Notes under the pieces: model-generated
What the model was told of the DNA's origin: nothing
Seen by the model: the letters and a program-made list of their open reading frames with translations, nothing else
Database searches by the model: none
In this document: piece after piece, positions 23,513-24,987 of the stretch
Position numbering within the stretch: the first letter of the stretch is position 1
Layout of the letters: each line of letters begins with the position of its first letter
From: Squalus acanthias
Lineage: Eukaryota
Reading direction: 5' to 3'
Length of the DNA stretch: 64,000 bases
Assembly: GCA_030390025.1 (NCBI GenBank)
Contig: CM059432.1
Span: forward strand, 63,428,001-63,492,000
Program-made: the position numbers and the translations under genes

Positions 23513-23669
23513 CAGGATATGGTATTTTCCCATATGTAGTGATCTCATACAGAACAATACCAAAGGACCACACATCAGATTTCATAGAAACCTGATTCGT
23601 AATTGCAATTTCTGGGGCAGTCCACTTAATAGGAAGTTGACTATCAGGTATTTCAGCAGCAGTGGCACC
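23513..23669 (-). CDS. Kinase exon 7 ([20 protein letters not shown]...SDVWSFG...PYP)
   Basis: 157 nt, CAG/GTAAGT, phase 0 to 1, open. Confidence 0.93.
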
Positions 23670-24004
23670 CTGTTGTGAGAAGCTTGTAATTATAATACAT
23701 TTTTGTTAATTACATAATCAAGCTTTCACATTTTTATAACCTTCTAGGATCATAAGATTAATTAAAAATGACTGTTTTGGTAATAGTGAACAAATGCTTA
23801 ACGCAATCATATGACATCCACTATTTAAATGTAGCTTCAACCCATTTATCTTAAGTGGTTAGAAAGTAATTGCCTCGTGCATTCCAGGTTCTAATATGCA
23901 CTGCCAGCAGGCGAGCTCCGAAGTGGAAGTGTGAAATTGGATTTGCATCTTAAAAACTATCCTTTGTTTGTCACCATTGCTGTTCAGTTGGAAGTCTCGC
24001 TCAG

Positions 24005-24352
24005 AATGAACATAGGAACATAAGAAATAGGAGTAGGAGTAGGCCATACGGCCCCTTGAGCCTGTTCCGCCATTCAATAAGATCATGGCTGATCATCGAC
24101 CTCAACTCCACTTTCCCGCCCTATCCCCATATCCCTTGATTCCCTTAGTGTCCAAAAATCTATTGATTTCAATCTTGAATATAATCAATGACTGAGTATC
24201 CACAGCCCGCTGGGGTAGAGAATTCCAAAGATTCATAACTCTCTGAGTGAAGCAATTTCTCCTCACCTCAATCCTAAATGGCCAACCCCTGATTCTGAGA
24301 CTATGACCCCCTGGTTCGAGACTCTTCAGCCAGGGGAAACAACCTCTCAGCA
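24005..24352 (-). mobile_element. CR1 3' end in kinase intron 6
   Basis: CR1 3'UTR and TTCTTATG-like tail. Confidence 0.88.
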
Positions 24353-24808
24353 TAGAGGTGATAATGGTGACTGGTGTAAAGGGAAAAATTCGCACAGGCC
24401 CTTTGCAAGGTGCACTCCTGAGGTTGAGAGTTATGGCACATTGTTCCGACAATGAACAGCAAGCCTTACTTTGTCATTGGCTATGAAAGTGGAAGTGGAA
24501 AATGTTCTGTTCCCGAGCTTTGGCATCCCTTACCTCAATGAGCACATAACTACAAATTAAGGAAAGGTAAATAAAACAAAAAAATCAGATACTGAAGCCT
24601 GAAAAATAGAATATTATAAACTAATTTGCCCACCCCCCCGATTTAAATAAAATGTAGCACTGTGAGTTATACTGCTCAAATGCAGTTTTGAATATGAGTT
24701 AAGTCGTTCACATGACAATACTAATGGAAGCTGATAGCGAGCAAATGAGTTTAAAGCATCACCAAGTTCTTCATCACTGTTTTTTACACAAGTATATTCT
24801 GTGCCTAC

Positions 24809-24987
24809 CTTTAACAATCTAGTAAGTCCAAAGTCTGAAATTTTGCAAATGATGTTGTCTCCCACAAGAATATTTCTTGCTGCTAAATCCAGATGAATGT
24901 AATGTTTGGATTCAAGGTATGACATTCCAGCAGCAACCTGAACTGCCATGTCTATTAATTGAGCAACTGTAAAACGGTCTTCAGATC
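24809..24987 (-). CDS. Kinase exon 6 (catalytic loop [12 protein letters not shown])
   Basis: 179 nt, CAG/GTAGGC, phase 1 to 0, open. Confidence 0.93.

What the first reader, a model, noticed from the sequence alone, without database searches (positions are those of the whole stretch)
23513..24987. BRK-family tyrosine kinase that has lost both the HRD arginine and the activation-loop tyrosine
Seen: the catalytic loop reads IHLDLAARN and the spliced activation segment [29 protein letters not shown] has no Tyr. GxGxxG, the VAIK Lys, the alphaC Glu, the catalytic Asp/Asn and DFG are all retained. Known: in FRK/PTK6/Src the HRD Arg coordinates the autophosphorylated loop Tyr. Inference: joint loss of both partners looks like coevolution to a phosphorylation-independent non-RD kinase rather than random decay, possibly a lineage-specific paralog.
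Basis: partly seen in the sequence, partly recalled or inferred. Interest (0 to 1): 0.75.

Follow-up and report, generated by a model that had tools for sequence, protein, structure and literature searches.

The report
Switchless PTK6-like kinase of sharks
Sharks, rays and chimaeras carry an extra PTK6/SRMS-like tyrosine kinase that keeps every catalytic residue but lacks the activation-loop tyrosine (and, outside carpet sharks, the arginine that binds it), so it likely works without the self-phosphorylation switch its relatives use.

Summary
The window holds a whole 8-exon SH3-SH2-kinase gene (51188-23236, minus strand, 542 aa). Its one frameshift (47338) is an assembly error: 4 of 4 runs lack the extra base, and one contig of a close relative joins exons 1 and 2. 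Across 18 cartilaginous-fish sequences, chimaera included, the loop Tyr is absent in 18, HLD stands in 13, and the core catalytic and spine residues are invariant in 18. The 5 with HRD are all carpet sharks: a natural Leu-to-Arg revertant that did not regain the Tyr, so the two changes are not obligately coupled. Trees put the gene beside PTK6 and SRMS (100/96), not FRK (AU p=0.0017). Ordinary FRK, PTK6 and SRMS exist separately in sharks. Best reading (inferred, no assay): a kinase with no Tyr autophosphorylation switch and modest standing activity, gated by the retained tail Tyr/SH2 pair and an N-terminal Cys cluster. Rivals: a conserved loop Ser/Thr (16 of 18) is the new switch, or the protein is a low-activity scaffold. 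My paper searches found no description. New variant of a known kind.

The parts
50701..51188 (-). Exon 1 (coding part): start codon, N-terminal Cys cluster without Gly2, unique region, SH3 domain with altered ligand surface (VQFDY, PVEIL)
   Evidence: tblastn to orthologs; Pfam SH3_1 E 5.8e-9; GT donor; no differences listed against the contigs of two same-species samples
47281..47403 (-). Exon 2: first half of SH2 (alphaA2 Arg171, betaB5 Arg191 kept); one spurious extra base at 47338 in the assembly
   Evidence: frame switch in tblastn; 1 base left out in 4 of 4 runs, in X1, X2 and X6 at the full local depth listed; X6 contig joins it to exon 1
37581..37744 (-). Exon 3: second half of SH2
   Evidence: tblastn 86% to P0007; AG/GT ends
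35015..35180 (-). Exon 4: SH2-kinase linker with Trp274, Gly-rich loop GSGNYG (Tyr292 where relatives have Phe), VAIK Lys309
25116..25274 (-). Exon 5: alphaC Glu324, gatekeeper Thr353; the following 128-base intron needs a GC donor
   Evidence: frame is kept only with the GC donor; not checked on reads
24809..24987 (-). Exon 6: catalytic loop HLDLAARN (codons of HLD at 24895-24887) and DFGLTRLLK
   Evidence: Pfam PF07714 E 8e-22; best true hits in PDB are PTK6 kinase chains, E 1.6e-19
23513..23669 (-). Exon 7: Tyr-less activation loop (Thr429, Ala430 at the Tyr site, 23660-23658), PIKW, APE, alphaF Asp458
23236..23429 (-). Exon 8 (coding part): C-lobe end and tail ending on Tyr542 as the last residue, then stop
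   Evidence: Tyr is the last residue in 17 of 18 sequences

Best explanation
This is an intact fourth BRK-family kinase of cartilaginous fishes, on the PTK6/SRMS branch, that lacks the activation-loop Tyr and (outside carpet sharks) the HRD Arg, and so likely acts as a tyrosine kinase with modest standing activity that needs no loop autophosphorylation. Shown: intact gene, clade-wide conservation, invariant catalytic and spine residues, loose loop sequence, kept tail Tyr and SH2 pocket, Cys-rich N-terminus. Inferred: (1) both lost residues also hold the OFF state in relatives (unphosphorylated PTK6 buries Tyr342 on the catalytic Asp; the Src HRD Arg can bridge the swung-out alphaC Glu), so losing them would remove the OFF latch and the ON latch together and leave a domain of constant, intermediate activity; (2) control would pass to the tail Tyr binding the SH2 domain and to membrane targeting by palmitoylation of the N-terminal Cys cluster; (3) the altered SH3 surface would weaken or redirect the SH3-linker clamp. 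Once the Tyr was gone, position 399 was probably under weak constraint, which would let carpet sharks return to Arg.
For: Gly-rich loop glycines, Lys309, Glu324, His398, Asp400, Arg404, Asn405, DFG, Glu446, Asp458, Arg520, the R-spine and three C-spine positions, linker Trp274 and SH2 Arg171/Arg191/Ser193/His212 are each invariant in 18 of 18; loop Tyr 0 of 18; only 1 of 14 loop positions invariant against 116 of 257 in the kinase domain. In matched species pairs the loop is 35/70 identical against 50/65 for PTK6 (5 pairs) and 31/84 against 71/102 for FRK (6 pairs); pairs share branches. AlphaFold model of the Heptranchias ortholog: mean pLDDT 82.6, loop 52-60, matching assembled Src 1fmk at TM 0.89. 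PMC5991704 (passages): Tyr342 buried against Asp312 in unphosphorylated PTK6. PMC3223231 (passages, section 17): Src64 R403C keeps 90% activity; Glu310 bridges Arg385 or Arg409 in inactive Src; the authors suggest a constant low-activity state. PMC7738883 (passages): Tyr447-SH2 inhibits PTK6 and linker Trp184 is needed for activity. Two acanthocephalan kinases show the same pairing, HCD with no Tyr.
Against: No activity assay exists. c-Src R385A keeps only 10% activity on an outside substrate (cited in PMC3223231), and Leu resembles Ala more than Cys. Ser/Thr at position 429 in 16 of 18 and a basic residue at 423 in 18 of 18 leave a possible phospho-site and part of the pocket. EFR is non-RD, needs loop phosphorylation, and does not need catalysis (PMC8463890). 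The tail Tyr is the last residue in 17 of 18, so it has no +1 to +3 residues for the SH2. The kinase domain evolves faster than FRK and PTK6 in the same species (69-86% against 83-93%). The structure model was built on an alignment dominated by ordinary RD kinases, so its closed form is not independent evidence.
Confidence: 0.5

Rival explanations
1. The switch moved and did not vanish: an upstream Ser/Thr kinase phosphorylates the residue next to the lost Tyr (Thr429), read by the basic residue at 423, and carpet sharks rebuilt a full two-Arg pocket for it.
For: Ser/Thr at 429 in 16 of 18 although the rest of the loop drifts; residue 423 is Lys or Arg in 18 of 18; all 5 HRD sequences have Arg423 and Thr429. 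PMC3223231 says the HRD Arg matters most in Ser/Thr-phosphorylated kinases. EFR precedent (PMC8463890).
Against: Callorhinchus and Mustelus have no Ser/Thr there. The flanks of 429 are not conserved, so there is no fixed kinase recognition motif. Residue 423 has a second role in the inactive state (PMC3223231).
Confidence: 0.2
2. It is a low-activity, largely non-catalytic adaptor: it binds ATP and keeps the fold, but signals through SH2, the membrane anchor and allosteric contact with a partner kinase such as PTK6 or a Src-family kinase.
For: Non-RD kinases are described as having low in vitro activity and EFR works without catalysis (PMC8463890). c-Src R385A has 10% activity (PMC3223231). 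PTK6 has kinase-independent roles (PMC5991704). Several BRK-invariant positions changed on the stem: 422, 447, 453.
Against: Asp400, Arg404, Asn405 and the P+1 loop Pro/Trp, needed for phosphotransfer to Tyr and not for the fold alone, are invariant in 18 of 18.
Confidence: 0.22
3. Control passed to an inhibitory phosphate on the new Gly-rich-loop Tyr292, the position of CDK1 Tyr15 and Abl Tyr253 (both recalled), gained on the same stem branch.
For: Tyr292 in 17 of 18 against Phe in 31 of 32 aligned non-clade proteins; the two acanthocephalan HCD kinases have the same IGSGNYGEV loop.
Against: Tyr at this place is not rare: 65 of 351 motif matches outside the clade, many Abl-like and with a loop Tyr as well. 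The pattern was noticed after the fact. Hemiscyllium has Phe. No phosphorylation data.
Confidence: 0.06
4. It is a decaying pseudogene or an assembly artefact.
For: The assembly shows a frameshift in exon 2 with a stop at residue 194; intron 5 needs a GC donor; ray gene models lack part or all of the SH3.
Against: The extra base is absent in 4 of 4 runs and a relative's contig joins exons 1 and 2; 17 other species have open kinase frames with invariant catalytic residues.
Confidence: 0.02

Closest known systems
PTK6 (BRK)
   Same: SH3-SH2-kinase order, AAR-type catalytic loop, WERP linker Trp, tail Tyr, no Gly2; best true PDB sequence hits of the catalytic exon; sister group in two trees (89/71; 95)
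   Different: PTK6 has HRD and the activating Tyr342; loop of 20 residues with PYKW against 21 with PIKW; 52-54% identity in the kinase domain to shark PTK6, which is a separate gene on another chromosome-scale contig in 3 of 3 species compared
SRMS
   Same: Same branch; loop length 21; grouping with SRMS fits as well as grouping with PTK6 (constrained tree 2.9 log units better, p=0.585)
   Different: SRMS has HRD and Tyr380 and lacks the tail Tyr (PMC7352994); this gene is the reverse
FRK and invertebrate Src42A/SRK2 (the names databases give these proteins)
   Same: BRK-type catalytic loop; exon 6-7 joint after the DFG segment (FRK exon pattern recalled)
   Different: A clade with FRK is rejected (p=0.0017); true FRK with HRD and Tyr is present in sharks, rays and chimaera, on a different contig in 2 of 2 species compared
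Csk (recalled)
   Same: SH3-SH2 tyrosine kinase with no activation-loop Tyr and a DFGLT motif (recalled, not verified here)
   Different: Csk keeps HRD and has no tail Tyr (recalled); the model matches 1k9a poorly (TM 0.57) against Src 1fmk (0.89)
Non-RD kinases (EFR, XA21 type)
   Same: Uncharged residue in place of the HRD Arg with catalytic residues kept
   Different: Those are Ser/Thr-type receptor kinases; this is a cytoplasmic tyrosine kinase, and no immune link was tested
Acanthocephalan SH3-SH2 kinases KAI0978795.1 and KAL7670920.1
   Same: HCD, no loop Tyr, IGSGNYGEV loop
   Different: Placed away from the clade in the best tree, though a joint clade is not rejected (p=0.129); Src-like tail; unstudied gene models

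Membership tests
BRK family (PTK6, SRMS, FRK) | SH3-SH2-tyrosine kinase architecture | tested here: met
   Pfam on P0007 and window exons; fold match
BRK family (PTK6, SRMS, FRK) | Groups with BRK members in a tree | tested here: met
   Clade with PTK6 and SRMS 100/96; 93 with Src-family and Abl outgroups
BRK family (PTK6, SRMS, FRK) | DLAARN catalytic loop, not the Src-family DLRAAN | tested here: met
   18 of 18; Src shows RAAN
BRK family (PTK6, SRMS, FRK) | Eight coding exons with BRK-type intron positions | tested here: inconclusive
   Eight exons found; the FRK/PTK6 pattern is recalled and was not fetched
BRK family (PTK6, SRMS, FRK) | HRD Arg and activating loop Tyr shared by all three known members | tested here: not met
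   Tyr 0 of 18, Arg 5 of 18; hence filed as a variant
FRK ortholog | One clade with FRK | tested here: not met
   AU p=0.0017; true FRK present in the same species
PTK6 ortholog | Is the species' own PTK6 | tested here: not met
   Heptranchias, Heterodontus and Scyliorhinus canicula each have a separate HRD+Tyr PTK6; a shark-only duplicate of PTK6 is not rejected (p=0.248)
SRMS ortholog | No C-terminal regulatory Tyr | tested here: not met
   Terminal Tyr in 17 of 18; Scyliorhinus torazame has SRMS (P0027) and this gene (P0409)
Src family | Gly2 myristoylation site and RAA catalytic loop | tested here: not met
   N-termini begin MAVL/MEVL/MSVL; AAR loop
Non-RD kinases | Non-Arg residue before the catalytic Asp | tested here: met
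   Leu in 13 of 18, including the window
Non-RD kinases | Activity independent of loop phosphorylation | not testable with these tools
   Needs enzyme assays
Pseudokinases | Loss of the beta3 Lys, catalytic Asp or DFG Asp | tested here: not met
   All three invariant in 18 of 18

The most novel reading that the evidence does not exclude
An ancient fourth BRK kinase, lost in bony vertebrates, swapped tyrosine autophosphorylation for another control more than 400 million years ago (date recalled). Carpet sharks then rebuilt the two-arginine pocket around a loop threonine, making a tyrosine kinase switched on by Ser/Thr phosphorylation. Acanthocephalan worms reached the same non-RD, Tyr-less, Tyr-in-P-loop design on their own.
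Probability: 0.15. Interest if true: 0.75.

Novelty: new variant of a known kind. Interest (0 to 1): 0.5.

Why it matters
Almost all Src-module kinases turn on by phosphorylating a loop tyrosine that the HRD arginine holds (340 of 347 domains parsed here). What that arginine does in tyrosine kinases is unsettled: fly Src64 R403C keeps 90% activity and c-Src R385A 10% (PMC3223231). This gene gives a natural panel with Leu/no-Tyr (13 species) and Arg/no-Tyr (5 species) in one ortholog group, beside Arg/Tyr paralogs in the same animals, so the role of each residue can be tested with evolved sequences. It also adds an unrecognised BRK-family gene to the vertebrate kinome, now mislabelled Src42A-like, SRK2-like or FRK-like. 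Its biological role is unknown, and non-RD kinases as a concept are known, which limits the score.

Tried and rejected
No whole genome is held, so no genome-wide paralog count or direct synteny. Searches were in the wrong frame and are not used. Neighbour genes: Pfam scan of the 100 longest of 216 open frames outside the gene gave only reverse transcriptase, endonuclease and one Myb/SANT-like hit, so no synteny anchor. The first AlphaFold run (12 sequences) failed, pLDDT 36. The exhaustive search of 50% representatives returned no high-scoring single-kinase cluster (best 550 bits), but it also returned no representative of the clade itself, so it is a weak test for bony-vertebrate orthologs; none stood among the 120 listed of 1053 hits (7999 candidates scored). 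dN/dS could not be computed: no ortholog coding DNA, and the relative is nearly identical. No RNA holder on record was listed; X6 and X7 are RNA by the tool's guess only. 'Sister to PTK6' was my reading after and was withdrawn when the SRMS-constrained tree scored higher. An alternative exon-6 donor that would bring in an intronic Tyr was considered and rejected: full-length ortholog models use the first donor and give 21 residues; one truncated model reads through (P0408). PMC5547543 was read in passages for the Csk loop and gave nothing. Earlier scan findings: none. No complex prediction was run.

Full report
Observation. The minus strand at 24987-24809 encodes a tyrosine kinase exon with HLDLAARN and DFGLTRLLK, and 23669-23513 encodes [20 protein letters not shown]. 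The Leu codon is CTG. In an alignment of 48 proteins, the window's Leu399 faces Arg in 34 of 34 proteins outside the clade and Ala430 faces Tyr in 34 of 34.

The whole gene. tblastn with four ortholog proteins found eight coding exons from 51188 to 23236. All introns have GT-AG ends except intron 5, which needs a GC donor to keep the frame (not checked on reads). As assembled, exon 2 has an extra base and the frame stops at residue 194. Contigs of four public runs were laid on 47020-51400. All four lack one base at 47338: two samples of the window's own organism code (depth 19.5 of 19.5 and 15.9 of 15.9; either may be the source of the assembly) and two runs of a close relative. One 518-base contig of the relative runs from 50881-50701 straight into 47403-47277, the exon 1-2 joint (the run is RNA by the tool's guess). 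Without that base the gene gives 542 residues and one terminal stop. The gene is intact.

Distribution. The catalytic exon found 10 proteins among 56 candidates, 9 of them shark and ray orthologs. A profile search listed 13 orthologs, chimaera included, at 770-1128 bits; the best ordinary single-kinase protein scored 547 (multi-kinase fusions score higher by summing). Cluster look-up added four species. Of these 18 sequences with the window, 0 have a loop Tyr, 13 have HLD and 5 have HRD. The five are two Chiloscyllium species, Hemiscyllium, Stegostoma and Rhincodon, all carpet sharks. In the tree the three carpet sharks included form a clade (100/100) nested among Leu sequences, and the Arg/Leu state needs 2 changes: loss on the stem and return in carpet sharks. 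All five also have Arg423 and Thr429. No bony-vertebrate member stood among the 120 listed of 1053 hits; this is weak evidence of loss (see Tried and rejected).

Placement. The 14 clade sequences in the 48-row tree form one group (100/100), which joins PTK6 and SRMS (100/96). A clade with FRK is rejected (p=0.0017). The sister is unresolved: free trees gave PTK6 (89/71; 95), but a tree constrained to SRMS scored 2.9 units higher (p=0.585), and nesting with shark PTK6 is not rejected (p=0.248). Ordinary FRK, PTK6 and SRMS with HRD and Tyr exist in cartilaginous fishes. By the length of the contig on record, the gene lies apart from PTK6 in 3 of 3 species and apart from FRK in 2 of 2 (this assumes one assembly per species). 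It is thus a fourth BRK-family gene, either a genome-duplication copy or an early duplicate that moved.

What is kept and what changed. Invariant in 18 of 18: the three Gly-loop glycines, Lys309, Glu324, His398, Asp400, Arg404, Asn405, DFG, Pro439, Trp442, Glu446, Asp458, Arg520, spine residues Met328, Leu339, Val295, Ala307, Leu407, linker Trp274, and SH2 Arg171, Arg191, Ser193, His212 (spine assignments from recalled Src numbering and the alignment). The loop is the loosest part, 1 of 14 positions invariant, yet its length is 21 in 17 of 18. Changed on the stem: Gly-loop Phe to Tyr (17 of 18), SH3 ALYDY to VQFDY and PxNY to PVEI/L, DFG+2 Ala to Thr in most. The tail Tyr is the last residue in 17 of 18; the chimaera has a Tyr at a similar place with more tail behind it. 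Intact N-termini carry a Cys cluster and no Gly2. Kinase-domain identity between species is 69-86%, against 84-88% for PTK6 and 83-93% for FRK in matched pairs: constrained, but faster. An AlphaFold model on 150 sequences is confident except for the N-terminus, the loop and the last residues (pLDDT 82.6) and matches assembled Src (TM 0.89); the alignment was mostly ordinary kinases, so the conformation is not independent evidence.

Is the coupling general? Among 347 kinase domains parsed by pattern from the non-clade proteins fetched, 340 have Arg and a loop Tyr, 3 lack both, 3 have Arg only and 1 has Tyr only (domains that failed the pattern were not counted, and the set holds many close relatives). 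Two of the three double losses are acanthocephalan kinases that also share IGSGNYGEV. The best tree puts them away from the shark clade, but a joint clade is not rejected (p=0.129; the motif columns were left in). So the traits tend to go together, while carpet sharks show that Arg can come back without Tyr.

Mechanism (inferred). In unphosphorylated PTK6, Tyr342 is buried against the catalytic Asp312 (PMC5991704, passages). In inactive Src, Glu310 bridges Arg385 or Arg409; Src64 R403C keeps 90% activity, c-Src R385A 10%, and the authors suggest a constant low-activity state when both contacts are lost (PMC3223231, passages and section 17). Both missing residues therefore serve the OFF state as well as the ON state. 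I infer a kinase of constant, moderate activity, gated by the tail Tyr and SH2 as in PTK6 (PMC7738883, passages) and placed at membranes by palmitoylation (0.5). Against this, EFR shows that a non-RD kinase can need loop phosphorylation and not need catalysis (PMC8463890, abstract and passages). That supports the two main rivals: a Thr429 switch (0.2) and a scaffold (0.22). A Gly-loop Tyr switch (0.06) and decay (0.02) are minor.

Novelty. Databases name these proteins Src42A-like, SRK2-like, SRK3-like or FRK-like. Five searches of the open-access library (listings only) showed no paper on this gene; one search listed 20 of 238 papers, none with PTK6, and one search listed 20 of 23. The SRMS review PMC7352994 (passages) does not mention it. 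Subscription papers and all supplements were not seen, so a kinome table could list it. Non-RD kinases, and Tyr-less loops as in Csk (recalled), are known; a Src-module tyrosine kinase clade with both traits, intact catalytic residues and a natural revertant lineage was not found in print. Verdict: real, conserved, a new variant of a known kind; interest 0.5.

Noticed in passing
window 47338: Extra base in exon 2 makes a false frameshift; absent in 4 of 4 runs.
   Followed up: yes
window 25115-24988: Intron 5 (128 bases) keeps the frame only with a GC donor.
   Followed up: partly
window 50885-50883: Ile102 replaces the SH3 RT-loop Arg found in nearly all relatives; contigs of both same-species samples and of X7 show no difference there, so it looks real.
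   Followed up: partly
window about 35075 and 24820: Ala294 (orthologs Glu/Asp) and Arg423 (Lys in 11 of 18) differ from the nearest orthologs; not checked on reads and could be assembly errors.
   Followed up: no
window 48428, 48482, 48516, 48526, 49811: Single-base differences in intron 1 shared by both same-species samples against the window: more assembly errors or another haplotype.
   Followed up: no
P0284, P0320: Two acanthocephalan SH3-SH2 kinases have HCD, no loop Tyr and the same Gly-rich loop as the shark clade.
   Followed up: partly
P0269: Unnamed C2-like plus SH3-SH2 kinase with HRD, no loop Tyr and a Gly-loop Tyr.
   Followed up: no
P0009, P0010, P0011: Ray gene models lack part or all of the SH3 domain: model errors or real SH3 decay in rays.
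   Followed up: no
P0022, P0023, P0026, P0027: Gene models that fuse SRMS and PTK6, in two teleosts, a mammal and a catshark, which points to a tandem pair kept across jawed vertebrates.
   Followed up: no
window 9373-11845, 21772-22230, 54519-58245, 62050-62838, 3432-4025: LINE-type reverse transcriptase and endonuclease fragments and a Myb/SANT-like frame; no cellular neighbour gene found.
   Followed up: partly
window 28871-30496, 32350-33895, 39301-41263, 44864-47013: Long repeated stretches inside introns 2 and 4.
   Followed up: no
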